From an uncultured Pseudomonadales bacterium (GTDB lineage: Bacteria; Patescibacteriota; Microgenomatia; UBA1400; UBA12108): 64,000 nucleotides of DNA. Position 1 is the stretch's first letter. Each line of letters starts with the position of its first letter. The stretch covers positions 3,019 to 67,018 of the forward strand of contig CAYFZD010000001.1 in NCBI GenBank assembly GCA_964347565.1, written 5' to 3'. The notes below the pieces were generated by a model. It was not told the origin of the DNA, made no database searches, and saw nothing but the letters and a program-made list of their open reading frames with translations. This document shows positions 637 to 26,947 of the stretch, piece after piece. The translations under genes and the position numbers were made by a program.

Positions 637-2544
<1,908 letters not shown>

Positions 2545-2548
2545 TAGT

Positions 2549-3169
2549 ATGTACAAGAAATATCGAACGTCTATATATTTTGTATTAGGATGTCTGACTG
2601 GGATTGGGTTGACTTTATTCGGACCATATGTCAGAAAGCAATTGCTGTCTAATCCTGAAACCAAATTTAATACCTTCCATAGTTCTCGTGCTTCTTTTAG
2701 TTTTCAACATCCCAACGATTTTCCCATTACACCGTTATCTGACCAATCCATATATCAGTTTGCAGACGAAAACTATATCGAATGGATCAATCTAGGCACC
2801 CTTGATTTCACACCAAATGCTCCATCAATGGGGGAAGGATTTCTTATAGTTAAAAGAATCCCCTGTATGATTACGGGAACTTACGAGGAACTTATTTTGC
2901 AAGAATACAAGGACTTAATAGCTGGGTGGAAAAGGATTGATAATAGAGCAGATACAACTCTCCCGATAATTGTAAAAACAAAATTGGGCAACAAAGATGC
3001 CTACAAAATTACAAATAATAATCCAGATACAACTGGAACTTTTGACAATACAAGCTACGAAATTGATACGTTTAGTCCGTGTCTACGATATCGACTCTAT
3101 ATAACACCCAGAGATAAAGAACGTACTAAGCAGATGGAAGAAATCTTAAAAACTTTTAAGTTTGAATAA
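2549..3169 (+). CDS. Hypothetical protein with N-terminal TM anchor
   Basis: 206-aa ORF with one N-terminal hydrophobic helix and no recognisable motifs. Visibly AT-richer than flanking gmd/uxs. Confidence 0.45.
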   Translation: MYKKYRTSIYFVLGCLTGIGLTLFGPYVRKQLLSNPETKFNTFHSSRASFSFQHPNDFPITPLSDQSIYQFADENYIEWINLGTLDFTPNAPSMGEGFLIVKRIPCMITGTYEELILQEYKDLIAGWKRIDNRADTTLPIIVKTKLGNKDAYKITNNNPDTTGTFDNTSYEIDTFSPCLRYRLYITPRDKERTKQMEEILKTFKFE

Positions 3170-5293: not shown

Positions 5294-6406
5294 CTACAGC
5301 AGCGCTCCCCAATTACTAATCGGTTGGATATTTCTAAGTACAAACTGCCAGCCCAGTAGATAAATAGGGATCAACATCAGCGCAATTCCCCACCAATACT
5401 TTCTCGGGATCCTCTCGATCAGTGGTGCGTATCCAAGTAGTGCTATTGGCGCAATCGGGAGGGCATATCGTGCTAAATCCCGGTGTGCCACAAATAGCAA
5501 AGTTGTCCCGTAGATTAGTCCCCATTTCTTGAGCATTGGCCAACGACCATTGACCATCGCTATCCCTACCCCGTAAAAGATGTATAGATAAATGATGTCC
5601 TCTCTCCACATATCGTTGATCCAGGTGGCCATATTCGAAAAAATCGAAAATGGCGGGAAAAATAAGTGCAGATTGTCACCAGAGTGAAAGTAGGCGAGAG
5701 GATCTCCATATCTCCAGCCGTAAAACCCAAATAACCCCACCAAAACAATCGGCATGAGTATGTAGGGAAGTAGGTCCTTGGGTCTACGCCACATACTCAA
5801 AAGATAAACACCAAAGAGTAAGATGCCTGGACTCCTAGTGAGCACCGCCAGTGCCCCAGCAACAGCACTAGGCCAGTATTTTTGTTTAATCGCCCAAGTT
5901 AGCGAGATGATCACAAGAAAAATAAATAGTGGTTCGTTGCTCCCGACTCCTCGGACTGAAAGCATGCGCGCAGGGAAAAACAGCCCGATCGTAGAAAGTA
6001 AAATAGCCAAATTTTTGTTTTTCAGGGTTGTGACAAAAAAGAAATATAACCCACCCGCCAACAGCAAATTCGACAAAATGATCGACAAAAGGAGTGCTTG
6101 TGGGGGTGTCAGAATGAAATCAAAAATCTTGATGAGACCTGCAAAAAGGGGGAAATGTGCGGCATAGTAAATTGGGTCGTTTCCCGTCAAAAATTGAGCG
6201 TTGATCGCTTCAATAGTTTTGGGGTTATATCCACTTTTTTCCACTACCAAGAAGTTTAATCCATCAAAATTCTGTACTACAGCCTCCATCCCTCGACGTG
6301 CAAAATCGATCCCCCAAAATTGACCTGTTTTGACCAAAAACGGTGCCCAGAAAACCATCAAGGAGAGACCTACGGCCATGAGTACGAGTAGCAAGTTACG
6401 CGCCAT
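5294..6406 (-). CDS. Polytopic membrane protein, PIG-V-like putative GT-C glycosyltransferase (paralog family A)
   Basis: About 9 predicted TM helices. Motif NFDGLNFL..EKSGY..AAHFPLFAGL is shared with 28.7-29.7k, 35431-36474 and 36489-37574. Confidence 0.55.
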   Translation of the reverse strand: MARNLLLVLMAVGLSLMVFWAPFLVKTGQFWGIDFARRGMEAVVQNFDGLNFLVVEKSGYNPKTIEAINAQFLTGNDPIYYAAHFPLFAGLIKIFDFILTPPQALLLSIILSNLLLAGGLYFFFVTTLKNKNLAILLSTIGLFFPARMLSVRGVGSNEPLFIFLVIISLTWAIKQKYWPSAVAGALAVLTRSPGILLFGVYLLSMWRRPKDLLPYILMPIVLVGLFGFYGWRYGDPLAYFHSGDNLHLFFPPFSIFSNMATWINDMWREDIIYLYIFYGVGIAMVNGRWPMLKKWGLIYGTTLLFVAHRDLARYALPIAPIALLGYAPLIERIPRKYWWGIALMLIPIYLLGWQFVLRNIQPISNWGALL

Positions 6407-9398: not shown

Positions 9399-10515
9399 AT
9401 TATTATTTTTTCTATGGTTTTTTGTTGCTTTGGTTTTATTTGTCTATAGTTACGGTTTTGTCGATTTCAACTTGACCCTCTCCTCCCATCCCTTCGTGAC
9501 GAGCTTTGTTTCCTGGTCACAGCAATTAGCCATGTTTCATCGCTCCACTTCACTCTACGTTTATTTAGGTCTGATAGTCCTCCTCTACCTCCTATACTCA
9601 CTTACCCTATTACTCTACAGACCCAAAACCTTTCCTTGGCTTCTTGTTTCTTTGCTCGCTTTTATTTTTTCTATTAGCTACCCCTTTCTCTCATCTGACG
9701 TCTTTAAGTATCTCTTCGCAGCGAAAGAACTCCTCCTCTACCACGCCAATCCCCACACCATCGCCCCGTGGGTCTTTGAGGGGGACACATGGCTCCGCTT
9801 CATGCGCTGGATCCATACTCCCAGTCCCTATGGGCTGACGATGACAGCCCTCGCCGTGCCATATTATCTCTTGGGATTTGGCAAATTTGTTCCCACCCTC
9901 TATCTTTTCAAGCTCGACCAGGTCTTTTGGTATGGGCTCTCGATTTGGGTGATCGGGAAACTGGGGGGCAAAAGAGCCCTACTCGCCCAGCTATTTTTCG
10001 CGCTCAATCCCCTCGTCCTCCTAGAATGGCTAGTCAATTCGCATAATGATGCCCCGATGATTTCTCTCCTCCTCCTCTCGCTTTACCTACTGACCCTCGG
10101 TCGCAAACTCCCCTCATTGGTCGCTCTCATCTTCTCTATCGGCATTAAGTACGTCACAATCTTTGCTTTACCATTTCTTTTTTTCAAGAAACTTACCCAA
10201 TCATTCATCGTCCATAGTTCATTGGCCATTTTATTCCTCGCTCCCTTGCTCTATCACTATTCCTATCAATATCAGCCTTGGTACGTGACCTGGCTCGTCC
10301 CGTTTGCCGCTCTCTCTGGCTCCACTTTGCTCATGTCACTCACCGCCGCCTATAGCCTCGGCGCGCTCCTGCGCTATATCCCTTTCATCCAGATCGGCTT
10401 GTGGGAGGGGACTGCTCGCTACTTTGCCCTCCTCACGTTTACACCACTCGTCCTCACCCTTATCTATTTTCTAGCCCTTCATCTGTTCAAGAAATCAGCC
10501 AAAAACCCGCTATAA
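9391..10515 (+). CDS. Polytopic membrane protein (putative glycan-assembly GT-C / unknown family)
   Basis: 374 aa with about 10 hydrophobic helices and a conserved loop SSDVFKYLFAAKELLLYHANP. 8-nt overlap with upstream GT2. Confidence 0.5.
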   Translation: MSKLLFFLWFFVALVLFVYSYGFVDFNLTLSSHPFVTSFVSWSQQLAMFHRSTSLYVYLGLIVLLYLLYSLTLLLYRPKTFPWLLVSLLAFIFSISYPFLSSDVFKYLFAAKELLLYHANPHTIAPWVFEGDTWLRFMRWIHTPSPYGLTMTALAVPYYLLGFGKFVPTLYLFKLDQVFWYGLSIWVIGKLGGKRALLAQLFFALNPLVLLEWLVNSHNDAPMISLLLLSLYLLTLGRKLPSLVALIFSIGIKYVTIFALPFLFFKKLTQSFIVHSSLAILFLAPLLYHYSYQYQPWYVTWLVPFAALSGSTLLMSLTAAYSLGALLRYIPFIQIGLWEGTARYFALLTFTPLVLTLIYFLALHLFKKSAKNPL

Positions 10516-16307: not shown

Positions 16308-17927
16308 ATGAAAGAAAAAATCTCAGTTATTATCCCCACGGTGAACGCCTTTGAAGAACTCGATCTTGCGATCGAGAGTATCAAAAAAAACTCTGACCAC
16401 CCCATCGAATTTGTCATTGTCATCGACCCCGATATGAATACCGGCAAAGTAAACGATGATATCCTCAAAGTCTGTAAAAAACAAGGAGTCAAAGCCTGGG
16501 TAAACAAAGAGAATTTGGGACCCTACGGCAACTGGAACCGGGGAGCTGAGGTAGCCACAACCGATTGGCTCGTGTTTGCGACCGACGACCAATATTTTGC
16601 GCCTCACTGGGACTCTAATTTGCTCAAGTATTGGCAGCCCAAGAGACTTATTTCAGGTCGTCTCATCGAGCCTGGGATCATCCCCGTCTACAAAACCAAT
16701 ATCCAGCAAGATTTTGGGGTGCTACCCTCTGAATTTAGGGAAAAAGATTTTATCGCTTGGTGCCAAAGGCGTAAGGTAACTGGTTATACCCCAGACGGAT
16801 TCTTCATTCCCATGCTCCAGAAAAGGGCTGATTATGACGTTCTCGGTCACTATCCGGTCGCGGGCAAATTTGGGACTAGTACTGCCGTTAGTAACGACTA
16901 TCTCTATGTTCAAGCCGCACTCAAAAAAGGGTATGAGTTTGGCACCGCAGAAGACTCCTATTCTTACCATTTCCAAGCCAGTTCCTGGAAGAAAAAAACC
17001 TTGAAGCCGAGTGTCGCGGCGATTGTCCTCACCAAAAATGAAGAGCGTGACCTCGCCAAGTGTCTGAAATCTCTCGCTTGGGTCAGCGATATTTTTATCA
17101 TCGACTCTGGCTCCTCTGACAAGACTCTCTCCATCGCCAAACAATTTAAGGCCAAAATATTCACGCGAGAACTCGACAATTTTAGTGCCCAGCGCAACTT
17201 CGCCCTCTCCAAAGTAGGGAGTTACAACTGGGTACTGATGGTCGACGCCGATGAAGTGGTAGAGCCGGAGCTAGCCAAAGAACTGCAATTTTTTGCCAAA
17301 GATATCTACTTAGACGGAGTAAACGTCCCGCGCAAGAACTATATTTTTGGCAGATGGATCGAACATACCGACTGGTATCCGGATCATCGCCTCGTCTTTT
17401 TCCGTCCCAAGATGGTGCAATATGCTGGCGACGTGCATGAGCGACCTACGTTCGTGAAGGGGAACGGGACGACTGCGACCTCAACCCACCATCTACTCCA
17501 CCACAACTACGACAGTGTGCGTGAGTTCGTCGCGAAAAATCTCGTGGACTACCCAATGCAATATGCCCAAGTTTTACACGCCGACAAAGTCAAGTTCACA
17601 GCTCTAGACTTACTTTCCAAACCCCTCGCTGAGTTTATGCGACGCTTCTTCCTGACATCGGGCTACAAGGACGGTCTCTATGGTCTCATCTTGAGTGCCC
17701 TCATGGGTGTCCAAACACTTGTGGCCTACTGTTACCTCTGGGAGCTCCAGGGCAAGCGGGAGGAGCTCACGACACAGGAAACACAATCCCTATTTAACTC
17801 ACTGCGTGGCAAATCTAGTGAGCTATCCTACTGGCTCACCACTTTGGCCATAGAAAGTGCCTCCGGTGCTACCAAACTCTTCCACCGAGCTCATCGCAAA
17901 GCCTTAAAACTAGTGAAAGGCCTATGA
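16308..17927 (+). CDS. Tandem double-GT2 glycosyltransferase
   Basis: Domain 1: ISVIIPTVNAFEEL...FATDDQ. Domain 2 begins near aa 230: VAAIVLTKNEERDL...IIDSGSSDKT...VDADEVV, with a WaaE/KdtX-like amphipathic tail GYKDGLYGLIL...YLWELQG. Confidence 0.8.
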   Translation: MKEKISVIIPTVNAFEELDLAIESIKKNSDHPIEFVIVIDPDMNTGKVNDDILKVCKKQGVKAWVNKENLGPYGNWNRGAEVATTDWLVFATDDQYFAPHWDSNLLKYWQPKRLISGRLIEPGIIPVYKTNIQQDFGVLPSEFREKDFIAWCQRRKVTGYTPDGFFIPMLQKRADYDVLGHYPVAGKFGTSTAVSNDYLYVQAALKKGYEFGTAEDSYSYHFQASSWKKKTLKPSVAAIVLTKNEERDLAKCLKSLAWVSDIFIIDSGSSDKTLSIAKQFKAKIFTRELDNFSAQRNFALSKVGSYNWVLMVDADEVVEPELAKELQFFAKDIYLDGVNVPRKNYIFGRWIEHTDWYPDHRLVFFRPKMVQYAGDVHERPTFVKGNGTTATSTHHLLHHNYDSVREFVAKNLVDYPMQYAQVLHADKVKFTALDLLSKPLAEFMRRFFLTSGYKDGLYGLILSALMGVQTLVAYCYLWELQGKREELTTQETQSLFNSLRGKSSELSYWLTTLAIESASGATKLFHRAHRKALKLVKGL

Positions 17928-18850
17928 AAAAATCTCTCAAGATAAAGCACGCGGTCGTGCTTGTCAACTACAAAGTCTCAAAGGACACGATTGCTTGTGT
18001 GAAATCGATAGAAAAATGCAAAGATGCTCCCCATATTATCGTTGTCGACAATGGCTCGAGCGCAGAAGTAGTCCAAGAATTACGTGAAGCCTGTCCTGGT
18101 CTAGACATCATTGCCTCACCCACGAATGTCGGTTTCTCAGCGGGGAATAACCTTGGCATCAAAAAAGCCCTCAAGCTTGGTGCCCAGGTCGTCTATATCT
18201 TAAACAACGACACCCTCGTCGATCCCAACCTGTTTTTCCGGAGCTTCCGCTACGTGGCGGGCAAAAATCGCATCGCCGGGGGCAAAATCTACTATGCCAA
18301 AGGATACGAATTCCACGACGATCAAAAAGGGCAGGGGAATATCCTTTGGTACGCTGGGGGATACTTTAACTGGGAGAGTGTGATCGCGACTCATTACGGC
18401 GTCGACGAGGTCGACCATGGGCAGTACGACAAAATTAGGCCCGTCGACTTTATCACCGGATGTTTCCTCGCCGTCCCCCGCCAGGTTTTTCACAAGATTG
18501 GATTACTTGACGAACCTTTCTTCCTCTACCTCGAAGACACGGATTTCTGTCTTCACGCCAAAAAATTGGGTATCGAGGTCATGTACAACCCCAACTTAGT
18601 AATTTATCACTGCAACTCGAGCTCCACGGTCGCGGGGAGTCCACTGGTCGACTATTACATCACCCGTAACCGCTTCTTTATCGGCCGTCGCTATGGTACT
18701 CTCCGCCTCCGTTTTGCGCTTTTGCGCGAGGCACTATTTAGGAACTGGAGTTCGAGCGTCCGTCGCCTGGCATTTTTTGACTATCTATTTGGTAGAATGG
18801 GTAATAGAAATGAAGCAATCTTCGCCCTTGCGGCCAAATTGGATAAATAG
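17924..18850 (+). CDS. GT2 glycosyltransferase (rhamnosyltransferase WbbL-like)
   Basis: AVVLVNYKVSKDT, IIVVDNGSS and NVGFSAGNNLGI motifs. ATGA overlap with upstream gene. Confidence 0.8.
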   Translation: MKKSLKIKHAVVLVNYKVSKDTIACVKSIEKCKDAPHIIVVDNGSSAEVVQELREACPGLDIIASPTNVGFSAGNNLGIKKALKLGAQVVYILNNDTLVDPNLFFRSFRYVAGKNRIAGGKIYYAKGYEFHDDQKGQGNILWYAGGYFNWESVIATHYGVDEVDHGQYDKIRPVDFITGCFLAVPRQVFHKIGLLDEPFFLYLEDTDFCLHAKKLGIEVMYNPNLVIYHCNSSSTVAGSPLVDYYITRNRFFIGRRYGTLRLRFALLREALFRNWSSSVRRLAFFDYLFGRMGNRNEAIFALAAKLDK

Positions 18851-20243
18851 CTTAGGTTTGTTTTTTGCGCTTTCTGTTGGTTTTGTGCTTTATCTTCGCC
18901 TCGGTCGTGACTTTCTCTTTGACTGGGATGAAGGGATCTACGCTGAGCTTGGGAGACAGCTCCTCGCGACCAAGGATTTCCTGGTCGCTTCCTGGAACGG
19001 CGCTCCCTGGCTCGAGAAGCCTCCTGGTATTGCCTGGGTTTCTGCACTAGGCATCATGTTTGGCGGTGAGACTGCCTATGGTGCCCGCCTCCTCATGCCA
19101 TTATTTGCGGTCTATACCCTCTACATCGTCTATCGGATTGGGACTCATCTGGGGGGATGGAAACATGGTCTGATTGCGGCGGGGGTACTCGCCACCTTCA
19201 ATCTGTTTCTCGGTCGCACACGGGCCGTGAATACCGACATGCCACTCCTTGCGAGCATCACGACTACAGTGTTATTTTTACTCGAAAATCGTCCCGCTTG
19301 GTGGGTAGCTTTCTCGGTCTTTGGGGGAGTCTGGTTCAAAGGGATCGCCGGTTTACTCTCTGTAATTATCGCTCTCCCACTTCTCCTCTCCAAATCAAAA
19401 AAATTCCTCGCATTGTTCATTATTTATTGTTCATTGTTCATTATCCCTTGGCATCTCTACACTTATCTCAAATACGGTCAGGATTTCTTGACTCCCTATT
19501 TCTATGAGCAAGTCCTGCGTCGCGCCACGGCCCAGATAGAGTTTCATTTTGAGACTCGCTGGTACTACTTTAATTATCTCTACGAAAATTTGGGGCTTGG
19601 AGTGTTACTCGTTTCTTTTGTGGGGGCGCTCGCGACTCTCATGAGCAAAAAAAATTGGTATCTCTTGTGGTGGGTTTTCTCCCCACTCGCCATCTTCACA
19701 CTCGCCAAGACGAGACTCTTTTGGTACATTTTACCCGTATACCCTGCCCTCGCCCTGCTCATTGCCCAGGCAATTGGAGCGTGGCAAAAAGATCGGACTT
19801 CCCGGGGCGTAGTTGCCATTCTAGCCATAGGGATTTGGGCACAGGCACTTCTGCTCTCAGCCCGCTCAGTCGAATATAGGAAATTCGCCTCCCCCGTTCC
19901 GGATCGTATCTATGTTGCCCAGGAATTAGGCCGACTCACAAGTGACGAGCTCCTCATCCTCGTCCCGCCCTCTGAGCGCCTCGCCGAGGCTCTCCTGCCA
20001 TCAGTGGCTCGTCTTACCTCTAGTTTCCGCTACGGAGGGATGCCCTCGGTCGTGTTCTATTATGGTGGACCCGTTGAGTTTTACTACGACGTCGACAAGT
20101 TTCGGGCGGATTGGACCAAACAGCCCTCACCCACGGCACTCATAGCCACAGAGGACGCCCAGCTCGTTCCTGGCTCAAGCAATACTATCGTTTCTACCAA
20201 AACCTATCTGGGTATCCAGAAGGGGGTCTATGCTCTCCGTTAG
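18810..20243 (+). CDS. GT-C family membrane glycosyltransferase (ArnT/PMT-like)
   Basis: Loop DWDEGIYAELGRQLL (DE motif), more than 10 TM helices and a C-terminal soluble domain. In-frame Met at 18810; the tracked ORF at 18693 overlaps the upstream gene. Confidence 0.65.
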   Translation: MKQSSPLRPNWINSLGLFFALSVGFVLYLRLGRDFLFDWDEGIYAELGRQLLATKDFLVASWNGAPWLEKPPGIAWVSALGIMFGGETAYGARLLMPLFAVYTLYIVYRIGTHLGGWKHGLIAAGVLATFNLFLGRTRAVNTDMPLLASITTTVLFLLENRPAWWVAFSVFGGVWFKGIAGLLSVIIALPLLLSKSKKFLALFIIYCSLFIIPWHLYTYLKYGQDFLTPYFYEQVLRRATAQIEFHFETRWYYFNYLYENLGLGVLLVSFVGALATLMSKKNWYLLWWVFSPLAIFTLAKTRLFWYILPVYPALALLIAQAIGAWQKDRTSRGVVAILAIGIWAQALLLSARSVEYRKFASPVPDRIYVAQELGRLTSDELLILVPPSERLAEALLPSVARLTSSFRYGGMPSVVFYYGGPVEFYYDVDKFRADWTKQPSPTALIATEDAQLVPGSSNTIVSTKTYLGIQKGVYALR

Positions 20244-20994
20244 CACACAGATCGCTCGTGGCGACGATCTCGCTACTTTTGCCCAAATGTTAAAAAGTGT
20301 GGAGTTTGCAGGGGAGCTCATCATCTTTAACATGGAGCGGACTGACGCGCCCGCCCTCGCTCTCTTTAAAAGATTTAATGCGCGTGTGATAGAGGTTGTG
20401 ACCCCCAAGATTGTCGAGGGTATTCGGGCTAGGCAGGTCAAAGAAGCAAAAGGGGAGTGGGTACTCATCATGGATTTTGACGAAGTTGTCACCCCCTCAC
20501 TCCAAGGAGAAATTAAGGCATTGATTGATAACCTCGCTTCCTGTTCGTCCTACGCGATCCCCAGGGACAACTACTCTCTAGGTTACCCATTGCGCCATGG
20601 AGGCTGGGAGCGCGACTATGTCGTGCGTCTGATCCGCAAGAATGATTTTATGGATTGGCCCACTAATATTCATAGCTCGCCGGTGATGAAGGGGAGTATG
20701 ATCAAGACTCTCCATCCCATGGAGCATCACAAAGATGCCAGTCTCTCTCAGATGGTCGAGAAAACCAACCGCTATAGCGACATCGAAGCAAAATTATTTT
20801 TTGACGGACACCTCCCTCCTGTCTCCGCCCTCACTTTAATTCGCAAAAGTGGGATGGAATTCCTCCGCCGCTATATTCTCAAAAAAGGTTTTCTCGACGG
20901 GGCCATCGGCCTCCTCCAATCTCTCTATCAAAGTTATTCTGTCTTCATCACCTACGCCAAGCTCTACGAGCTCCAACACAAATCAAAATCATGA
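20230..20994 (+). CDS. GT2 glycosyltransferase, WaaE/KdtX-like subfamily (variant nucleotide-binding motif)
   Basis: MDFDEVV (DxD) and C-terminal GFLDGAIGLLQSLYQSY...YELQH are paralogous to 31317-32090 and to domain 2 of 16308-17927. The first Asp of the usual VVD motif is Asn (IIFNME). Confidence 0.65.
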   Translation: MLSVSTQIARGDDLATFAQMLKSVEFAGELIIFNMERTDAPALALFKRFNARVIEVVTPKIVEGIRARQVKEAKGEWVLIMDFDEVVTPSLQGEIKALIDNLASCSSYAIPRDNYSLGYPLRHGGWERDYVVRLIRKNDFMDWPTNIHSSPVMKGSMIKTLHPMEHHKDASLSQMVEKTNRYSDIEAKLFFDGHLPPVSALTLIRKSGMEFLRRYILKKGFLDGAIGLLQSLYQSYSVFITYAKLYELQHKSKS

Positions 20995-21716
20995 AAAAGG
21001 AAACTTTCGTTTTACTCCCTGGCTACGATGGAGATGGGATCGGCACTTTTTCTGAGTTAAATAGCTTACTTTCGGTCAAGCATAATTGCCTCGTCATCAA
21101 CTATCCCTATTACGGCCAAACCGACAGAGTCTATACACTTGACGAATTAGTCTCATATGTACACAAAATCACTAATCAGCGCAAACTTTCCCGTTTTCAT
21201 TTGGTTGGTTTTTCCATGGGCGGATTTGTTGCCGCAGCCTATGCCATCAGATATTCCTCCCAACTCAAGTCGTTGACCTTAATAAGCTCCGCCGTGACCC
21301 CTCTCTTATCTCCCCTCAATCAGCTCTCACTCGTGATGGCATATCATCTCTTCAAAATTCCTCTTCTCGCCAGATTATTCTCCCTTATATACTGTTCCCC
21401 TTATCTCAGCGATATGGTGAAGGATTCTCCCTTGCCCCCACCTAGGGATAATTTTCCGGTAGCGGAGGGATACCCAGTCTTTGGCACGCTAGCCAATGTT
21501 TTATACGAATCAACTCATTCGCAATTATCTACCCAAGCTAAGCTGGCAAAACTAGTCAAAAAAGCGATTCTTTTTGCCGACGACCCCTCGTTTCCTGCGG
21601 CGATCTACTCGCCTATACTCACAGATCTAGGATTCCGCATAGTCGTTCACGACCACGGCGGCCACGCAACACACCCTGATTATTGGAATATAGTGGGAAA
21701 GGACCTACTACGTTAA
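20991..21716 (+). CDS. Alpha/beta-hydrolase fold protein (esterase/lipase-like)
   Basis: Nucleophile elbow HLVGFSMGG (GxSxG) with a His near the C-terminus. ATGA overlap with upstream gene. Confidence 0.65.
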   Translation: MKKETFVLLPGYDGDGIGTFSELNSLLSVKHNCLVINYPYYGQTDRVYTLDELVSYVHKITNQRKLSRFHLVGFSMGGFVAAAYAIRYSSQLKSLTLISSAVTPLLSPLNQLSLVMAYHLFKIPLLARLFSLIYCSPYLSDMVKDSPLPPPRDNFPVAEGYPVFGTLANVLYESTHSQLSTQAKLAKLVKKAILFADDPSFPAAIYSPILTDLGFRIVVHDHGGHATHPDYWNIVGKDLLR

Positions 21717-21732
21717 TTCGAATTATCGTAGT
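21707..21732. promoter_or_regulatory. 26-bp near-palindromic operator-like site (copy 1): ACTACG-ttaATTCGAATtat-CGTAGT
   Basis: 24/26 self-complementary around a TTCGAA core. Spans the hydrolase stop codon and ends 9 nt upstream of the regulator ATG. 25/27 identical to copy 2 at 22187-22212. Confidence 0.45.
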
Positions 21733-21740
21733 ATAGATGT

Positions 21741-22184
21741 ATGTCTCAAGTATCTAAATATCAATTAAGCAACAAAATCTACACCAAAATTTTCAGTTTA
21801 TTCCCTCAGTTTCTGTATCGAATGACAAGTCACGGCAAACAAGCTGAGCTAGTGGACGCTTTTTTTACTCGTACTGAAAAAGTCGTGATCGCCAAGCGAG
21901 TTGCTATCGCCTTCATGCTCGTCAAAGGATATAAATATGACCAAATAGTCGGAAAACTCAAAGTTAGTCACGGTACAGTAGCCAAAATTGCTGATTCGTT
22001 AAAATCTCATAGTGATAGTGTTACTCAGGAACTCGGTAGCATCGCCAAGGAAGATTCATTTACCGACTTTTTGAATGCCATCGGATACCAAGCATCTAAA
22101 CTCCTCCCCCCAAAGGGTGGTAACTGGTCTGACTGGAGAGGTAGAATAGAACAAGAGAAGAAGGATGCAGAAACACCATTCTAG
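21741..22184 (+). CDS. Putative DNA-binding protein, TrpR/YerC-YecD-like
   Basis: 147 aa. Segment VIAKRVAIAFMLVKGYKYDQIVGKLKVSHGTVAKIADSL resembles the Trp-repressor-like HTH of YerC/YecD family proteins. Gene is bracketed by the two palindromic sites. Confidence 0.45.
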   Translation: MSQVSKYQLSNKIYTKIFSLFPQFLYRMTSHGKQAELVDAFFTRTEKVVIAKRVAIAFMLVKGYKYDQIVGKLKVSHGTVAKIADSLKSHSDSVTQELGSIAKEDSFTDFLNAIGYQASKLLPPKGGNWSDWRGRIEQEKKDAETPF

Positions 22185-22186
22185 AT

Positions 22187-22212
22187 ACTACGATGATTCG
22201 AATTATCGTAGT
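22187..22212. promoter_or_regulatory. 26-bp near-palindromic operator-like site (copy 2): ACTACG-atgATTCGAATtat-CGTAGT
   Basis: 24/26 self-complementary. Starts 3 nt after the regulator stop and ends 12 nt upstream of the GATase ATG. Confidence 0.45.
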
Positions 22213-22223
22213 GAGAAGCAATA

Positions 22224-22802
22224 ATGTCTATGAGAACATTGATAATCGATAACAGTTCGAAATACCTAGATCGCCTAGTAGAGTTGATTCGGCCAGATCA
22301 ACCAGTAGTCAGGGAATATTCCCAAATCTCTGGCTTGGAATCCGAACAATACGATCTAATTATTCTCTCCGGTGGGCACTCATTCTCTATCGTGGGAAAC
22401 GAGGACAAACTCGCCCAAGAAATAGCTCTTATCCAACAATCCACTATCCCCATCCTGGGGATTTGTTTTGGTTTCGAGCTCATCGCCCACACCTTTGATG
22501 CCATCATGCAGAGGATGCAGACAAAAGAAAACGGGATCCTCTCAATCAATAAACTAGCGGGCGATCCAATTTTTACCAATTTGAGCGATCTCAGCGTGTT
22601 TGAAAGTCATCGATGGGTGGTGAGTGATCCTGGACAATATTTAGTGCCACTGGCCCGGTCCAGAGATGGGATCGAAATCATCAAACACCAAACGAAACCA
22701 ATCTATGGCTTCCAGTTCCACCCAGAAATGTTCCCCGATCAGACACAAGGCGATGAATTATTCGCGAATTTTACAAAAATAGTACAAAATAGCGTTATAT
22801 GA
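22224..22802 (+). CDS. Class I glutamine amidotransferase-like protein (stand-alone GATase1)
   Basis: Catalytic GICFGFELIA (Cys) and FQFHPEM (His) triad context. 192 aa with no fused synthase domain. Confidence 0.7.
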   Translation: MSMRTLIIDNSSKYLDRLVELIRPDQPVVREYSQISGLESEQYDLIILSGGHSFSIVGNEDKLAQEIALIQQSTIPILGICFGFELIAHTFDAIMQRMQTKENGILSINKLAGDPIFTNLSDLSVFESHRWVVSDPGQYLVPLARSRDGIEIIKHQTKPIYGFQFHPEMFPDQTQGDELFANFTKIVQNSVI

Positions 22803-23824
22803 AAAAAGCCTTAATTGTCAGTCCCTATCTCGACCACTTAGGGGGAGGGGAGCGCTACATGCTCTCAGTGGCGAGCGTGCTCGAGTCCCTGGGACACGAA
22901 GTCTACTTTGCCTGGGATAACGTGGGAGAAATAACTACCCTCGCTGGTATGTTTGGACTCACACTAGAGCGACCCCAGCTCGACCCTAAAATAAAAAACC
23001 TATATATGACTCATAATCCATTATCCATGTATCTCTCCACTCGCCCCTATGACGTGGTTATCTACCTCTCTGACGGGAGCATTCCGCTCCTGGGTGGCAA
23101 ACGCAATATTCTCCATATGCAAGTACCCTTCCACGGGGTAGGGGGGAAATCCTGGAAAAATCAACTCAAAAACCATTTGATTCACACTGTCATCGTCAAC
23201 TCCAATTTCACTAAGGGGGTCATAGACCGGGAGTACGGGATTGATTCACTAACCATCTATCCTCCCGTCCCCGCCATCTCCCCTTCCACCAAAACCAAAA
23301 CTATCCTCTCCGTCGGCCGTTTCGAGCCCTCGCTTAACACCAAACATCAAGATATCCTGATCCAAGCCTTCCGCGAGCTCTCCCCTCAACTTCCAGGATG
23401 GAAATTGGTACTGGCGGGAGCTTCCTCTAACGAAGAGTGGGTTACTCAACTTCGCAATCTGGCTCATGATCTGCCAGTTGAGTTTGTGGTCAACGCTCCC
23501 TACGCCAATTTATGTGATCTCTACGCAAGCTCTACCATCTACTGGCACGCAGCAGGGTACGGAGTGGACGAACACAAGAACCCAGAGCTCACCGAGCACT
23601 TTGGGATCAGCACCGTGGAGGCGATCTCCGCAGGCTGTATCCCCCTCGTCATCCCTTCAGGTGGCCAAAAAGAAATAGTCACTGACCCCTCGCTCCAGTG
23701 GACGACTATCTCTGAATTAATCGTCAAGACTCTTGATGCAATCTCTACTCCTCCCAGCGTCACCCTTGACACTTCTCTCTACTCGATGGAGAATTTTATG
23801 AATCAAGTAAAAAAAATCTTATGA
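22799..23824 (+). CDS. GT4 glycosyltransferase (glycosyl transferase group 1)
   Basis: C-terminal EHFGISTVEAISAGCIPLV (E-x7-E GT4 signature). ATGA overlap with upstream gene. Confidence 0.85.
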   Translation: MKKALIVSPYLDHLGGGERYMLSVASVLESLGHEVYFAWDNVGEITTLAGMFGLTLERPQLDPKIKNLYMTHNPLSMYLSTRPYDVVIYLSDGSIPLLGGKRNILHMQVPFHGVGGKSWKNQLKNHLIHTVIVNSNFTKGVIDREYGIDSLTIYPPVPAISPSTKTKTILSVGRFEPSLNTKHQDILIQAFRELSPQLPGWKLVLAGASSNEEWVTQLRNLAHDLPVEFVVNAPYANLCDLYASSTIYWHAAGYGVDEHKNPELTEHFGISTVEAISAGCIPLVIPSGGQKEIVTDPSLQWTTISELIVKTLDAISTPPSVTLDTSLYSMENFMNQVKKIL

Positions 23825-25083
23825 CCCTCAAACAAATTCTTACTTCCAAAATTTTCCTCCTTGGCCTCCTCATCCGTTTCGTAGTCATGCCCTTTACGGG
23901 CCACTACGACATTCGAGGCATTAATTTCGCGGTCTACAACTTGCCATTTAAAGGTATCACCAACGTCTATGAGGTCGCCTCCCATGGTCCCGTCGATTAC
24001 CTGGTAAACGTCAATTTTGGTCGCGACTACTTTATCTATCCTCCTCTCAATTACTTTACGCTAGGCACTTTCATGTCTGTCCTTAAGCCGTTATACGGCT
24101 CGGAGTTCGTGAGCTGGATCGAAGGGTATGGCTCTGACACTCTATCGGTCGTGACACACCCGCATGTCTGGAGATATCTGTTCCTCATGAAAATTCCATA
24201 CCTCTTCTTCGACGTCCTCCTTCTATATATTCTGATCCAGTTTTTTAGCAAAGACAAGGATAAAGAACGTGCGCTTAAATACTGGTGGCTCAATCCAATC
24301 GTAATTTTCTTGCCTTATATTTGGGGTCAATTTGACATCATCCCCGCCGCCGTCATGTTGGCGGGGGTACTCGCCGGCTTTAAAAACAAACCATATCACG
24401 CAGCCTTGCTCCTAGGCCTTGCAGCATCGTTTAAAAACTACCCGCTCATTTTACTGCCCTTTATCGCCATTATTTTTGGCAAAAATATTTGGCAGATGAT
24501 CAAGCTAATGGTGGTGGGAATGCTCCCATTTATTCTCACTACCGCCCCATTCTGGAGTCACGAGTTTTTTCGCAAGACCGTTCTTTTCTCCTGGCAATCG
24601 CAAAAGATGATGGATTTTATGTGGGCGATTGGGGGGAGTGACGGAGTTTATCCCTTTTTTATTGGATACTTCTTGATCATCATGTGGAGCTTGTACAGGC
24701 TTAGGGGGAGGGCGGATCAAATTTTTACTCCCATGGTTATGACTCTAACCTGGTACTACGCAACCACCAATTTTCACCAGCAATGGTTCATGTGGGTATT
24801 ACCATATTTAGTCATTCTTTGCATCAGGGATACCAAGTTGAGACTGATTGGCTTAGGAGTGGTTGCTTTGTTTTTCCTGCGTTTGATCGAAATCCAAGCC
24901 AACGTCACCACGGAATTGTTCGTCTGGCTCGCTCCCGCTTTTGAAGATCTTCCCAAGTCTCGTTATCTGGTTGGACTAGCATATGATATCCACAAATTCC
25001 GCAACATTGTCAACAGCATGTTTATCGCCCTGGCTTTTTTTGTCAATGCTTATTTAGGTAGTCGTGTGAAAGAAAAAATATGA
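23821..25083 (+). CDS. Polytopic membrane protein (putative glycan-assembly membrane transferase, unknown family)
   Basis: 420 aa with about 11 hydrophobic helices and an aromatic-rich C-terminus. ATGA overlap with upstream gene. Confidence 0.5.
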   Translation: MTLKQILTSKIFLLGLLIRFVVMPFTGHYDIRGINFAVYNLPFKGITNVYEVASHGPVDYLVNVNFGRDYFIYPPLNYFTLGTFMSVLKPLYGSEFVSWIEGYGSDTLSVVTHPHVWRYLFLMKIPYLFFDVLLLYILIQFFSKDKDKERALKYWWLNPIVIFLPYIWGQFDIIPAAVMLAGVLAGFKNKPYHAALLLGLAASFKNYPLILLPFIAIIFGKNIWQMIKLMVVGMLPFILTTAPFWSHEFFRKTVLFSWQSQKMMDFMWAIGGSDGVYPFFIGYFLIIMWSLYRLRGRADQIFTPMVMTLTWYYATTNFHQQWFMWVLPYLVILCIRDTKLRLIGLGVVALFFLRLIEIQANVTTELFVWLAPAFEDLPKSRYLVGLAYDIHKFRNIVNSMFIALAFFVNAYLGSRVKEKI

Positions 25084-25604
25084 ACCGCCAGGATCAGCAC
25101 CAGCCACTCACTTCGACAATCACTCGGTTTTACGAGGGAGAGACAATCTCTCAGATCTTTTATAGTAACCGCAATGATCTAAACACCGTCAGTATTTGTA
25201 TCCGTAACCCAGACCGTGCCCTGACCCCCATGACCTTCAAGCTCATGGAGGGGGATACTGTAGTACGTAACCTCGAATTTAGCGGGGGTAATATAGACAA
25301 CGAAGATTGCACCAAATTCAAGTTTGATAAAATTGCCGACTCTAAACACAAAACATACGCCGCCACCATTAGCTCGCCTCCCGTAGACAAAAAACTCAGG
25401 AGTCCGGCTGCCTTTAGCATAGAGATGCACGAGGGGGTCATGCACTACAAGACTTTTTACTATCAGAGTGTAGGGGAGGTGGTTAAAGAGTCTACCACCC
25501 AGCTCTTTACTAGATTTGGCCAAGATCCGCTGTTTCTAATATTTTGGGCTACCGCGATAATCTACTTGATTACCCGCCTGCGTTTAGCGATACGTAAGAA
25601 ATGA
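25080..25604 (+). CDS. Hypothetical protein with C-terminal TM helix
   Basis: 174 aa. A soluble domain is followed by LFLIFWATAIIYLITRL. ATGA overlaps on both sides imply co-translation with its neighbours. Confidence 0.45.
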   Translation: MNRQDQHQPLTSTITRFYEGETISQIFYSNRNDLNTVSICIRNPDRALTPMTFKLMEGDTVVRNLEFSGGNIDNEDCTKFKFDKIADSKHKTYAATISSPPVDKKLRSPAAFSIEMHEGVMHYKTFYYQSVGEVVKESTTQLFTRFGQDPLFLIFWATAIIYLITRLRLAIRKK

Positions 25605-26947
25605 AATTTAAGTTACTCTTCCTTCTACTTATTTTTACCTCTGCCATCCTCTTGCGCTTTTGGAACTACGAGGGTCGCACTACCTACGGCTGGGATCAAT
25701 CGCGTGACGTCGGCGTGCTCGAGTCCGCACTCACGACTCATCAACTCCCACTACTGGGCCCAATCGTGCGAGGCGATGTGGGCGGATTCTATCTCGGTCC
25801 CCTCTACCACTACTTACTGGCACCTATTTATTCTCTCACCGGTCAGAACCCGCTCTCACTCGTGTGGACCTCGATCATGCTGGATGTGGGGGTGGCTATC
25901 GGACTTACTCTGGCATTTGGCTTCTCCGCCGGTCTCATCTGGGCGTTCTCCTCCATGCTCATCAACTCGTCGCTCACCCCATGGAATGTTTCTCTCATCC
26001 ACCCATGGGTCTTGGCTATCATTCTCCTCTCCAGTCGCCTCACGAGCTCGCGCAACATCTGTCTATTCTTATTACTCATCTCTGCCTCTACGAGTATTCA
26101 CTTGACCCTCATTCCGCTCGCCTTCTTACTCTTGCTCGTCGCCTCACCCACGATTGTCCGAGCTACCCACCGCGCCATTGAATATCTCTACTATTTTCTT
26201 GCTCTCATCCTGCCCCAAGTTCCCCTCATTTTATCGGATCTCAGGAGTGGAGGCGCCAACGCACGAGCGCTCAAAGATTTCCTCCTCATCAAATCGCACG
26301 AAGATCCAGTCTCCCTACTGGAATTTAGTCAAGCCTTATTTAGTAAAATTGGCTATACTACGTCGAGATTATTTGTGGGCGAGCCCTATTTAGCTTTTGG
26401 CTGTCTAGTTTTTGTGGCGCTCCTAATCTACGGACTTCTCCACTGGAGGATCCACAGGGCCGCAGGCTTATCTCTTATTATTACTTTCACACTGATCGTC
26501 ACGCTATTCATTTACCGTGACCCAAATTTTGCCGAGTACTACCTGAATGCGATGTTAGTTCCCCTTGTGATCCTCGTCTCTCTCGCTCTCACGCGCACTC
26601 CACGTCCTCTAGTTTATCTCGTTCTTCTGATTATGATTGGTCTCAACCTCCGCTCACTAGACTTCCGCACAAGCGCCTATTCTATGGGGGCCAAAAAAGA
26701 CTTACTCATCTCAGCCGCCCCGCATCTGCAAGAGGGGGTAGAACTCCGCCTGCTCTTACCAGACCACCAACAATTTGGGTTTGCCTATTATTTGACCACA
26801 TTAGGCATATCCAACGACCCTAGCAATCACCTCAAGCTTTATATCGCCCCCGCGCTCATCGAGCACGTACCTGCTCCCCCTGACGCCCAGTCAGTTGTTT
26901 TCCAAACTCAGCTCTCAGCCTTCCGCTTGGTAGTTTTTAGCAACTAG
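25601..26947 (+). CDS. Polytopic membrane protein, putative GT-C (ArnT-like)
   Basis: N-terminal TM, then loop TYGWDQSRDVGVLE followed by about 11 TM helices. Confidence 0.55.
   Translation: MKFKLLFLLLIFTSAILLRFWNYEGRTTYGWDQSRDVGVLESALTTHQLPLLGPIVRGDVGGFYLGPLYHYLLAPIYSLTGQNPLSLVWTSIMLDVGVAIGLTLAFGFSAGLIWAFSSMLINSSLTPWNVSLIHPWVLAIILLSSRLTSSRNICLFLLLISASTSIHLTLIPLAFLLLLVASPTIVRATHRAIEYLYYFLALILPQVPLILSDLRSGGANARALKDFLLIKSHEDPVSLLEFSQALFSKIGYTTSRLFVGEPYLAFGCLVFVALLIYGLLHWRIHRAAGLSLIITFTLIVTLFIYRDPNFAEYYLNAMLVPLVILVSLALTRTPRPLVYLVLLIMIGLNLRSLDFRTSAYSMGAKKDLLISAAPHLQEGVELRLLLPDHQQFGFAYYLTTLGISNDPSNHLKLYIAPALIEHVPAPPDAQSVVFQTQLSAFRLVVFSN

What the first reader, a model, noticed from the sequence alone, without database searches (positions are those of the whole stretch)
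21706..22215. Two copies of a 26-bp near-palindrome bracketing a TrpR/YerC-like gene inside the GT array
ACTACGttaATTCGAATtatCGTAGT (21707-21732) and ACTACGatgATTCGAATtatCGTAGT (22187-22212) are 25/27 identical to each other, and each is 24/26 self-complementary around a TTCGAA centre. A chance 17-mer identity in 64 kb is expected about 0.1 times. Copy 1 overlaps the stop of the alpha/beta-hydrolase gene and sits 9 nt upstream of the small putative HTH gene (21741-22184). Copy 2 sits 3 nt after its stop and 12 nt upstream of the GATase1 gene. This geometry fits dimeric-repressor operators that autoregulate and gate read-through into the downstream half of the operon. Alternatively the sites could be the boundaries of an inserted cassette.
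Basis: seen in the sequence. Interest (0 to 1): 0.65.

Follow-up and report, generated by a model that had tools for sequence, protein, structure and literature searches.

The report
Operator palindromes of a TrpR-like regulator
Two near-identical 26-28 bp palindromes bracket a small Trp-repressor-like gene inside a giant glycosylation operon of an uncultured ultra-small (CPR/Microgenomates-type) bacterium; they are most likely that protein's own DNA binding sites, making an ordinary kind of gene switch in a group whose regulation is almost unknown.

Summary
Palindromes at 21707-21732 and 22187-22212 are 24/26 identical, each is 12/13 self-paired, and the 64-kb window holds no other copy.

They flank a 147-aa protein with the Trp-repressor fold. 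I fetched 19 homologous genes by protein alone. Eighteen carry such a palindrome 5-13 nt before the ATG, and 17 carry one just after the stop. This holds even for a 30%-identical homologue in a different gene neighbourhood.

The centre is ATTCGAAT in 17 of the 19 and always keeps TCGA. The outer arms fall into classes: ACTAC, ACTTC, GTATC and ACTCT. These classes track residues 77, 78 and 81 of the predicted recognition helix. Four such assignments were predicted before the DNA was fetched, and all four held.

The motif also occurs at a few other places per genome, usually about 8 nt before start codons, for example of NUDIX and FemAB-like genes. It was absent from the viral contig collection.

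Best reading: these are operators of an autoregulated TrpR-family regulator that also controls the downstream half of the glycosyltransferase array. Binding and repression are inferred, not shown.

The inserted-cassette, REP-like and RNA-hairpin readings are less well supported. This is a new member of a known kind, of moderate interest.

The parts
21706..21733 (.). Operator O1. The 26-bp near-palindrome is ACTACG-TTA-ATTCGAAT-TAT-CGTAGT at 21707-21732; with the Y/R flank it is 28 bp. It overlaps the stop codon of the upstream abhydrolase gene and ends 8 nt before the ATG of the TrpR-like gene.
   Evidence: A homologous site lies 5-13 nt upstream of the ATG in 18 of 19 homologous genes fetched by protein. 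The 28-bp extent comes from information content.
21741..22184 (+). Gene for a 147-aa TrpR/YerC-like helix-turn-helix protein, the predicted regulator. Residues about 10-105 have the TrpR fold. The recognition helix starts at S76-H77-G78-T79-V80-A81-K82. A family-specific C-terminal extension carries the motif PPKGGNWSxWR.
   Evidence: Pfam PF01371. PDB sequence hits 3kor, 3g1c and 3frw. AlphaFold2 pLDDT 78 and Foldseek top hits to E. coli TrpR 1trr/1tro with TM 0.76-0.81. hhalign to TrpR maps H77/G78/A81/K82 to I79/A80/T83/R84. 1104 family representatives at E<=1e-10.
22186..22213 (.). Operator O2. The 26-bp near-palindrome is ACTACG-ATG-ATTCGAAT-TAT-CGTAGT at 22187-22212. It starts 2 nt after the stop of the TrpR-like gene and ends 11 nt before the ATG of the GATase1 gene.
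   Evidence: A homologous site follows the stop in 17 of 19 homologous genes, and lies 8-25 nt before the next gene, usually the GT4 gene.
21729..21734 (+). -10-like hexamer TAGTAT, 6 nt upstream of the ATG. It overlaps the last 4 bp of O1. This is a candidate promoter for a leaderless trpR-like mRNA (inferred).
   Evidence: Read directly from the sequence. In this window and related loci SD motifs are nearly absent, and -10-like hexamers peak 6 nt upstream of ATGs. It was not reported by the sigma-70 scan, which requires a -35 element.
20991..21716 (+). Alpha/beta-hydrolase gene, a variable accessory gene at this junction. Its stop codon lies inside O1.
   Evidence: Pfam Abhydrolase_1 at 5e-15. 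It is present in some homologous loci (L120, where it has its own extra palindrome) and absent in others (L122, L123, L127).
22224..22802 (+). Class-I glutamine amidotransferase gene, a variable accessory gene and the first gene downstream of O2.
   Evidence: Pfam GATase at 3e-22. The same arrangement occurs in L032 and L132. In most loci it is absent and O2 directly precedes the GT4 gene.
22799..23824 (+). GT4-family glycosyltransferase gene. It is the conserved first gene of the downstream half of the array and the likely regulated target of O2.
   Evidence: Pfam Glycos_transf_1 at 1e-18. Its relatives lie 8-25 nt downstream of a palindrome in 15 loci.

Best explanation
The two palindromes are DNA operators for the protein encoded between them. 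That protein is a 147-aa member of the Trp-repressor (TrpR/HisR-YerC) superfamily. It belongs to a large subfamily found in records named Microgenomates group, Collierbacteria and Woesebacteria. Proposed mechanism (inferred): a symmetric oligomer of the protein binds each 26-28 bp site. The start of its recognition helix (residues 77, 78 and 81) reads the outer 5-bp arms, and conserved parts of the protein read the TCGA-centred core. O1 ends 8 nt before the gene's own ATG. The genome has no Shine-Dalgarno signals and seems to use leaderless or very short-leader mRNAs. Occupancy of O1 would therefore cover the promoter and start region and autoregulate the gene. O2 ends 11 nt before the next gene. 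It would control the downstream half of the glycosyltransferase array in the same way, by occluding an internal promoter, by blocking polymerases arriving from upstream, or both. A handful of further sites per genome extend the regulon; they lie upstream of NUDIX, FemAB-like, MFS, SDR and other genes. What is shown: the sites, their conservation, their position, and the protein/site co-variation. What is inferred: binding, stoichiometry, the sign of regulation, and the ligand.
For: (1) The protein has the TrpR fold. In this family, 18-20 bp palindromic operators with lineage-specific consensus are described. A candidate HisR site also lies upstream of the hisR regulator gene in R. gnavus (PMC9413887).

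(2) 19 homologous genes were fetched by protein, not by motif. 18 have a palindrome 5-13 nt upstream of the ATG, and 17 have one right after the stop. This includes L006, which is about 30% identical and lies between PEP-synthase-like and deformylase genes rather than in a GT array.

(3) Arm class follows the residues aligned with TrpR I79/A80/T83. H/F/Y77 with A or S at 81 goes with ACTAC. T77 with G78 goes with ACTTC. T77 with S78 goes with GTATC. G81 goes with ACTCT, unless residues 77-78 are T-S, when the arms are GTATC (L131). I predicted the class for P0014, P0064, P0071 and P0074 before fetching, and all four held. P0077 fitted as well, and P0033 kept GTATC arms.

(4) The pattern is not just phylogeny. 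L129a (A81, ACTAC arms) is 67-72% identical to the G81/ACTCT clade but only 51-55% identical to the H77 clade. L127 (T77, ACTTC arms) is 74-75% identical to the window protein and L001. All 13 distinct 147-aa proteins found next to ACTAC-selected sites have H, F or Y at 77 and A at 81, although 44 of the 92 homologues have T77 or G81.

(5) The rare core variants CTTCGAAG (L129b) and AATCGATT (L131) appear on both flanks of the gene concerned.

(6) Of 120 evaluable unique site instances, 61 lie within 40 nt upstream of an ORF start. The modal gap among oriented sites is 8 nt. Sites recur upstream of related genes in lineages with different arm classes: NUDIX, FemAB-like and GT4.

(7) Copy number is low. 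There are 2 sites in 64 kb, 4 exact sites at 3 places on a 554-kb contig, and none in IMG/VR.
Against: There is no experimental binding data. A 26-28 bp site, with arm centres about 21 bp apart, is longer than a TrpR-type dimer is known to span. The stoichiometry (dimer, tandem dimers, or a role for the C-terminal extension) is therefore unexplained. Sites are unusually perfect for a regulon, and symmetric double changes are frequent (9 of 11 pairs). A hairpin model predicts that equally well. No conserved -35-like element lies upstream of the sites, and the sigma-70 scan finds no + strand promoter at either copy, so the promoter placement is conjecture. Different arm classes occur in tandem or as hybrids in one genome, which requires additional paralogues that I could only show for one locus (L129). 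The protein/arm correlation rests on about 20 lineages and was not tested with a formal phylogenetic method.
Confidence: 0.72

Rival explanations
1. The palindromes act as RNA stem-loops in the polycistronic transcript. They could be intercistronic processing or stability elements, or translational gates just upstream of SD-less start codons. On this reading the TrpR-like protein is irrelevant or only indirectly linked.
For: The sites lie inside a co-directional, tightly packed operon and would be transcribed. They fold as hairpins of -9.2 and -14.2 kcal/mol; copy 2 has z=-3.0. Self-complementarity is kept through double-sided changes at 9 of 11 pairs and exceeds shuffled controls.
Against: Sequence, not just pairing, is conserved. 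The core and loop bases are invariant or nearly so across lineages, and the would-be loop TCGA is itself self-complementary. The two freely varying positions (6/21 and 9/18) are unpaired in 33-37% of unique sites. In gene-sense orientation most mismatches I read are A.C, not G.U. Copy 1 folds no better than shuffles (z=-0.84). All copies in one genome share the same arms, and these track the neighbouring protein's recognition helix. Hybrid sites with non-pairing arms are conserved in three lineages. Sites also occur in divergent intergenic regions (L006/L062). There is no Rfam match.
Confidence: 0.1
2. The palindromes are a REP-like or mobile repeat, or recombination sites that mark boundaries of inserted gene cassettes. 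On this reading the flanked gene is the element's cognate DNA-binding protein, analogous to REP-RAYT.
For: A single-copy gene is flanked on both sides by a repeat that is also dispersed in intergenic DNA and has lineage-specific variants, which resembles REP/RAYT logic. The variable accessory genes sit exactly at palindrome-bearing junctions, and some carry an extra copy. These are the abhydrolase (three sites in L005 and L120), the KNTase_C-like gene (L007) and GATase1 (window, L032, L132).
Against: Copy number is a few per genome, not tens to hundreds. The TrpR-like gene is syntenic in the GT array from 52% to 100% identity, and keeps both palindromes where no accessory gene exists (L122, L123, L127). 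The other sites lie at conserved positions before related genes, with a fixed gap of about 8 nt to the ATG. The flanked protein has no catalytic (HUH, DDE or recombinase) domain. There are no copies in viral contigs.
Confidence: 0.06
3. The sites are bound by some other factor, and the TrpR-like gene is merely one of its targets. Candidates are a nucleoid or segregation protein of the parS/matS kind, or RNA polymerase itself using the NATNAT halves as divergent -10 elements.
For: The sites are high-information, near-perfect palindromes typical of architectural sites. The core is the same across most arm classes. Each half contains NATNAT with the A2 and T6 of a -10 hexamer. No other promoter element is conserved nearby.
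Against: This does not explain why arm class and the rare core variants change together with the adjacent protein's recognition helix. It also does not explain why even a 30%-identical homologue in another gene context keeps both flanking sites.
Confidence: 0.08

Closest known systems
HisR (YerC/YecD) histidine repressors of Firmicutes, TrpR family (PMC9413887)
   Same: Small all-helical TrpR-fold HTH protein. The best PDB sequence matches are 3kor, 3g1c and 3frw; the paper discusses a HisR from Eubacterium eligens, the source organism of 3g1c. Operators are palindromic with lineage-specific consensus. A candidate site lies upstream of the regulator's own gene. The regulon has only a few operons.
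   Different: HisR proteins are under 100 aa, and their operators are 20 bp (cacTTTAnnnnnnTAAAgtg). Here the protein is 147 aa with a conserved C-terminal extension, and the site is 26-28 bp with a TCGA-centred core. The protein scores below the NCBIfam YerC/YecD cutoff (19.3 against 42.2). The neighbours are glycosyltransferases, not his genes. The ligand is unknown.
E. coli Trp repressor TrpR and its trp/aroH/trpR operators
   Same: The fold matches (Foldseek TM 0.76-0.81 to 1tro and 1trr). The variable residues 77/78/81/82 align with the DNA-facing I79/A80/T83/R84. R53, T43, T79 and S86 align with the TrpR residues R54, T44, T81 and S88, which from my own knowledge line its ligand and DNA region. 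The operator is palindromic. From my own knowledge, TrpR is autoregulated and TrpR dimers can bind in tandem (1trr).
   Different: About 20% identity. The protein scores below the TIGR01321 cutoff (17.9 against 67.25). The operator is 18-20 bp (TGTACTnGTnnACnAGTACA), against 26-28 bp here. No tryptophan genes lie nearby.
REP sequences with their RAYT genes
   Same: A dispersed intergenic palindrome with lineage-specific sequence, with copies flanking a single-copy gene.
   Different: REPs number tens to hundreds per genome, and the flanked gene is a HUH tyrosine transposase. Here there are a few copies, the flanked protein is a TrpR-fold HTH, and the sites keep a fixed spacing to start codons.

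Membership tests
Trp repressor superfamily (Pfam PF01371) | Sequence match above Pfam's gathering score | tested here: met
   33.7 bits against a cutoff of 27, E=4e-8, residues 21-98.
Trp repressor superfamily (Pfam PF01371) | TrpR-type all-helical fold with a helix D-turn-helix E DNA-reading head | tested here: met
   AlphaFold2 model with pLDDT about 90 over residues 11-100. The 32 best Foldseek PDB hits are all E. coli TrpR, with target TM 0.68-0.81 (0.76-0.81 for the top hits 1trr/1tro). hhalign gives 90% probability. The intertwined dimer itself was not modelled.
TrpR proper (NCBIfam TIGR01321 equivalog) | Score above the equivalog cutoff, and association with trp/aro genes | tested here: not met
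   17.9 bits against a cutoff of 67.25. The neighbours are GT2, GT4, PMT_2 and GT87 genes.
YerC/YecD = HisR (NCBIfam TIGR02531) | Score above the cutoff; length about 100 aa; his-gene regulon | tested here: not met
   19.3 bits against a cutoff of 42.2. Length is 147 aa with a conserved extension. No his genes lie near any site.
TrpR/HisR-type regulation | Palindromic operator near the regulator's own start (autoregulation) and near target genes | tested here: met
   The site lies 5-13 nt upstream of the ATG in 18 of 19 homologous genes. Other sites have a modal gap of 8 nt to the start codon of target genes. The length is 26-28 bp instead of 18-20 bp.
TrpR/HisR-type regulation | Sequence-specific DNA binding modulated by an amino-acid corepressor | not testable with these tools
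   There is only indirect support: arm class co-varies with helix residues 77/78/81. The ligand is unknown.
REP/RAYT (REPIN) systems | Tens to hundreds of copies per genome, and a flanked HUH (Y1) transposase gene | tested here: not met
   2 copies in 64 kb and 4 exact copies on a 554-kb contig. The flanked protein has the TrpR fold with no HUH domain.
Intrinsic terminators | GC-rich stem followed by a T-run | tested here: not met
   The stems are AT-rich and are followed by A-rich sequence. The terminator scan does not report them.
Known structured RNA families (Rfam 15) | Covariance-model match | tested here: not met
   Nothing lies at either palindrome at E<=1.

The most novel reading that the evidence does not exclude
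The sites form a modular operator code. A near-universal TCGA-centred core carries swappable 5-bp arms that are read by residues 77, 78 and 81 of a family with more than 1000 sequence clusters. Conserved hybrid operators (ACTACG...TAGAGT upstream of G81-type genes in three lineages) and tandem sites of different classes (before NUDIX genes) would then mean that paralogous TrpR-like proteins act as heterodimers or side by side. This would give a small combinatorial network that controls cell-surface glycosylation in ultra-small CPR bacteria. The palindrome-bearing junctions may also serve as preferred entry points for accessory genes.
Probability: 0.22. Interest if true: 0.65.

Novelty: new member of a known kind. 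Interest (0 to 1): 0.45.

Why it matters
My full-text searches found no description of a transcription-factor binding motif in Microgenomates, or of this motif anywhere. If the reading is right, this gives a concrete and testable regulator-operator pair. It also gives a simple residue-to-base specificity rule, for a family with over a thousand sequence clusters. And it identifies a control point in the middle of the very large glycosylation gene arrays typical of these bacteria. The many natural arm and helix variants make it a convenient system for studying how a repressor and its sites co-evolve. As a mechanism it remains an ordinary autoregulated repressor.

Tried and rejected
1. Cassette insertion of the TrpR-like gene. 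Rejected because the gene is syntenic across the family, with or without accessory neighbours.

2. High-copy REP/MITE. Rejected on copy number and on promoter-proximal placement.

3. Phage or mobile origin. Both motif classes scanned against IMG/VR gave no match.

4. Known RNA family. None found.

5. Intrinsic terminator or sigma-70 promoter on the + strand. The scan reports neither. The two - strand promoter-like hits (GATAAT inside each palindrome) depend on a -35 made of the first codons, and the palindrome-to-ATG gap varies from 5 to 13 nt in homologues. I therefore treat them as chance; overall the scan found 4 sites against 3.5 expected.

6. A conserved -35 element upstream of the sites. 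There is no information content there.

7. tRNA T-arm resemblance (TTCGAAT). By my reading of the sequence, the stem register does not fit. No tRNA scan was run.

8. A restriction-site explanation for TTCGAA. The hexamer is only mildly depleted, 11 observed against 22+/-4 expected.

9. A G.U-versus-A.C strand test for an RNA hairpin. By my reading, most mismatches in the sense orientation are A.C. The sites are phylogenetically related, so I give this little weight.

10. DNA-looping phasing between O1 and O2. By my count from the site coordinates, the spacing varies from 476 to 496 bp with no helical register.

11. Literature. My searches found no description of this motif or of CPR TrpR-like regulators.
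Full report
**Observation**

The window has ACTACGTTAATTCGAATTATCGTAGT at 21707-21732 and ACTACGATGATTCGAATTATCGTAGT at 22187-22212. The two are 24/26 identical, or 25/27 with the preceding T (family D12). Each is self-complementary at 12 of 13 pairs. Allowing three mismatches, the 26-mer occurs only at these two places, and never in 100 dinucleotide shuffles. Looser searches for the core or a half-site add nothing above chance, apart from one lone half-site at 2535-2548. The abhydrolase stop codon lies inside copy 1. There are 8 nt to the ATG at 21741, 2 nt from the stop to copy 2, and 11 nt to the GATase1 ATG.

**The gene and its setting**

The ORF at 21741-22184 encodes 147 aa and matches Pfam Trp_repressor above threshold.

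- A profile of the family hits the YerC/HisR-like structures 3kor, 3g1c and 3frw.
- An AlphaFold2 model is confident over residues 11-100. Its best PDB matches are E. coli TrpR, including the operator complexes 1tro and 1trr, with TM 0.76-0.81.
- The last ~40 residues are a family-specific extension, modelled with low confidence. They carry the conserved motif PPKGGNWSxWR.
- The protein scores below the NCBIfam cutoffs for both TrpR and YerC/YecD. It is a distinct subfamily.
- That subfamily is large: 1104 cluster representatives at E<=1e-10, mostly 145-150 aa. Named records among the homologues point to the Microgenomates group, Collierbacteria and Woesebacteria.

The gene sits inside a long + strand array of glycosyltransferase genes whose stops and starts mostly overlap by 4 bp. 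The two junctions that carry the palindromes are among the few in this stretch that do not overlap.

**Not a recent cassette**

In loci fetched through homologous proteins of 52-100% identity, the gene always occupies the same place. The order is GT2, GT2, PMT_2, a ~258-aa gene, [optional accessory gene], the TrpR-like gene, [optional accessory gene], then GT4 and onward. The accessory genes vary:

- an alpha/beta hydrolase in the window and L120 (read from the flanking sequence in L003 and L005);
- a KNTase_C-like gene in L004/L007;
- GATase1 in the window, L032 and L132.

Loci without any accessory gene (L122, L123, L127) still have a palindrome on each side of the TrpR-like gene.

**Conservation of the sites**

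I fetched 19 distinct homologous genes by protein alone. Of these, 18 have a palindrome 5-13 nt upstream of the ATG, and 17 have one starting 2-9 nt after the stop. Some loci have a third copy in front of the accessory gene (L005, L120). L004/L007 have two upstream copies and none downstream.

The Woesebacteria-type homologue (L006, L062) is about 30% identical. It lies between a PEP-synthase-like gene and peptide deformylase rather than in a GT array. It nevertheless has perfect copies on both flanks. The association is therefore with the protein, not with the glycosylation array.

**Anatomy of the site**

The consensus is Y-ACTAC-n-AT-n-ATTCGAAT-n-AT-n-GTAGT-R, 28 bp in all.

- The centre is ATTCGAAT in 17 of the 19 protein-fetched genes. 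Two variants were found, CTTCGAAG (second paralogue in L129) and AATCGATT (L131). Each appears on both flanks of the gene concerned, and TCGA is always kept.
- The outer arms fall into four classes: ACTAC, ACTTC, GTATC and ACTCT.
- Positions 6/21 and 9/18 vary freely. They are non-complementary in 37% and 33% of unique sites. All other pairs are complementary in 85% or more of unique sites.

**Protein-site co-variation**

hhalign places residues H77, G78, A81 and K82 opposite TrpR I79, A80, T83 and R84. From established TrpR structural work, cited from my own knowledge, these form the DNA-facing start of helix E. The observed rule is:

| Residues | Arm class | Loci |
|---|---|---|
| H, F or Y at 77, with A or S at 81 | ACTAC | window, L001, L002, L004, L006, L084, L129a, L132 and all motif-selected loci |
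| T77 with G78 | ACTTC | L003, L125, L127 |
| T77 with S78 | GTATC | L005, L120, L122, L131 |
| G81 (residues 77-78 not T-S) | ACTCT | L123, L128, L130 |

I formulated the rule after (note) and then fetched P0014, P0074, P0064 and P0071. All four matched the prediction. P0077 also fitted. P0033 kept GTATC arms, as T-S predicts, but with a changed core.

The pattern is not simply phylogeny. Outside the helix, L129a (ACTAC arms) is 67-72% identical to the ACTCT clade but only 51-55% identical to the H77 clade. L127 (ACTTC arms) is 74-75% identical to the window protein and L001. All 13 distinct 147-aa proteins found next to ACTAC-selected metagenome sites carry H, F or Y at 77 and A at 81, whereas 44 of the 92 database homologues carry T77 or G81. 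This is my strongest argument that the neighbouring protein reads these sites.

**Sites elsewhere**

A metagenome scan for ACTAC-N4-ATTCGAAT-N4-GTAGT returned 108 stretches. Roughly a quarter lie next to a TrpR-like gene and the rest lie elsewhere.

- One 553.7-kb contig has exact sites at three places, one of which is the pair flanking its TrpR-like gene. That suggests a few sites per genome.
- Of 120 evaluable unique site instances, 61 lie within 40 nt upstream of an ORF start and 23 more lie within 150 nt. Nineteen fall inside mechanically called ORFs, several of which are obvious start-codon over-extensions.
- Among oriented sites, the gap to the ATG has a sharp mode at 8 nt.
- Recurrent downstream genes are the TrpR-like gene itself, GT4, a NUDIX hydrolase, a FemAB-like gene, the abhydrolase, deformylase, and MFS, SDR, SNase, GNAT and methyltransferase genes.
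- NUDIX and FemAB-like genes carry sites in several lineages. At NUDIX the second site of the tandem differs in arm class between lineages, which is what a conserved regulon looks like.
- Before NUDIX genes an ACTAC-type site is usually paired in tandem with a site of a second class.
- G81-type genes have a conserved hybrid upstream site, ACTACG or ACTTCG on one side and TAGAGT on the other, in three lineages.
- L129 shows that two paralogues can coexist in one array. Cross-regulation between paralogues is therefore plausible but unproven.
- Neither the ACTAC nor the GTATC motif occurs in IMG/VR.

**DNA site or RNA hairpin?**

Symmetric double changes are frequent, at 9 of 11 pairs and above shuffled controls. 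A symmetric protein with class-specific arms predicts this, and so does a hairpin. Several things favour DNA recognition:

- Sequence identity is conserved, not just pairing. This includes the centre that would form the loop, and that centre is itself self-complementary.
- The only freely varying positions are often unpaired.
- Hybrid sites are conserved.
- All sites within one genome share the same arms, and those arms track the protein.
- Copy 1 folds no better than shuffled sequence (z=-0.84), although copy 2 does (z=-3.0).
- There is no Rfam match.

I cannot exclude an additional RNA-level effect, because the sites are transcribed in the operon.

**How it probably works (inference)**

Window genes almost never have a Shine-Dalgarno motif. 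In this window and related loci, -10-like hexamers peak 6 nt upstream of ATGs, which suggests leaderless or very short-leader mRNAs. In the window, TAGTAT (21729-21734) lies 6 nt before the ATG and overlaps the right arm of O1. In the gene-proximal half of oriented sites, position 21 is often A, which gives TATAGT or CATAGT. A protein on O1 would therefore cover the promoter and start region of its own gene. A protein on O2 would cover that of the next gene, and would thereby control the downstream GT4-led half of the array. It could also act as a roadblock to polymerases coming from upstream.

These points remain conjecture. No conserved -35 element exists upstream, and the sigma-70 scan gives no + strand hit, so the promoter placement is unconfirmed. 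Repression rather than activation is assumed by analogy with TrpR and HisR. The arms are about 21 bp apart centre to centre, more than a TrpR dimer spans. Tandem dimers, or contacts from the C-terminal extension, are needed, and I could not test this.

**Comparison with known systems**

The closest described system is HisR (YerC), a TrpR-family repressor with 20-bp lineage-specific palindromes and a candidate site upstream of its own gene in R. gnavus (PMC9413887). Next is TrpR itself. The present case shares the fold, the palindromic operator and a site at the regulator's own gene. It differs in five ways: protein length (147 aa against under 100-108), operator length (26-28 bp against 18-20), the TCGA-centred core with swappable arms, the regulon (cell-envelope and glycosylation genes, not amino-acid biosynthesis), and the mid-operon position. 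It resembles REP/RAYT only in the flanked-gene geometry, and it fails both defining tests for that system.

**Verdict**

It is a new member, a distinct subfamily, of a known kind of regulator-operator system. My full-text searches found no prior description of this motif or of TrpR-like regulators in these bacteria. Interest is moderate. The clean residue-to-arm rule and the hybrid and tandem operators are the parts most worth an experiment.

Noticed in passing
window, all gene starts (e.g. 10523, 37597, 5294-6406 on the - strand, 36489): Almost no gene has a Shine-Dalgarno motif. -10-like hexamers (TATAAT, TATACT, TAGTAT) peak 6 nt upstream of ATGs, which suggests widespread leaderless or very short-leader mRNAs in this lineage.
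   Followed up: partly
L037 ~1050-1075, L052, L053 ~2124-2146, L093, L065, L110, L105, L119, L027: A second dispersed imperfect inverted repeat, CCTTCAAGG-N5-CCTTGTAGG, lies next to several palindromes. One example sits between the tandem sites and the TATGAT/ATG of the NUDIX gene. It may be another operator or promoter element.
   Followed up: no
L129 1364-1807 and 9876-10319: Two 147-aa TrpR-like paralogues occur in one glycosyltransferase array. The second (Q77...M83) is flanked on both sides by ACTTCGATACTTCGAAGTATCGAAGT, a palindrome with an altered core, CTTCGAAG.
   Followed up: partly
L131 ~9970-10000 and 10450-10475: The homologue with T77-S78-G81-R82 is flanked by GTATCGATGAATCGATTCATCGATAC. 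It has the expected GTATC arms but a different core, AATCGATT. The core therefore also co-evolves with the protein.
   Followed up: partly
L123 9970-9995, L128 9970-9995, L130 9968-9993; also L015 5137-5162: Hybrid operators are conserved across lineages. One arm is of one class (ACTACG or ACTTCG) and the other arm is of the ACTCT class (TAGAGT). This hints at heterodimers or cross-regulation between paralogues.
   Followed up: partly
L037, L038, L053, L093, L023, L082, L057, L060; L015, L044, L052, L072, L090, L104: Tandem pairs of palindromes of two different arm classes lie 0-9 nt apart, most often upstream of a NUDIX hydrolase gene.
   Followed up: partly
window 2535-2548: A lone half-site, CGAAAAATAGTAGT, has one mismatch to the half-site consensus and abuts the ATG of ORF 2549-3169. 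There is no matching left half, so it may be chance.
   Followed up: no
window 6425-39538: About 33 kb of uninterrupted + strand genes, many with 4-bp stop/start overlaps. Every one checked (17924-26947) is GT2, GT4, PMT_2 or GT87, or has no Pfam match, and homologous loci add PTPS_related and Mannosyl_trans2. The same array order recurs across homologous loci.
   Followed up: partly
L126 1182-2249 and 2331-2693: A DDE transposase gene lies directly upstream of a TrpR-like gene called as 120 aa. At this locus the upstream palindrome is missing, so an insertion probably destroyed it.
   Followed up: no
window, whole: The hexamer TTCGAA is mildly under-represented, with 11 observed against 22+/-4.3 expected from shuffles. 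Two of the 11 are the palindrome centres.
   Followed up: no
L001-L003 record titles: Three MAG records that carry this CPR-type locus are titled 'uncultured Pseudomonadales bacterium'. This conflicts with the Microgenomates, Collierbacteria and Woesebacteria names of other homologues and looks like a mislabel.
   Followed up: no
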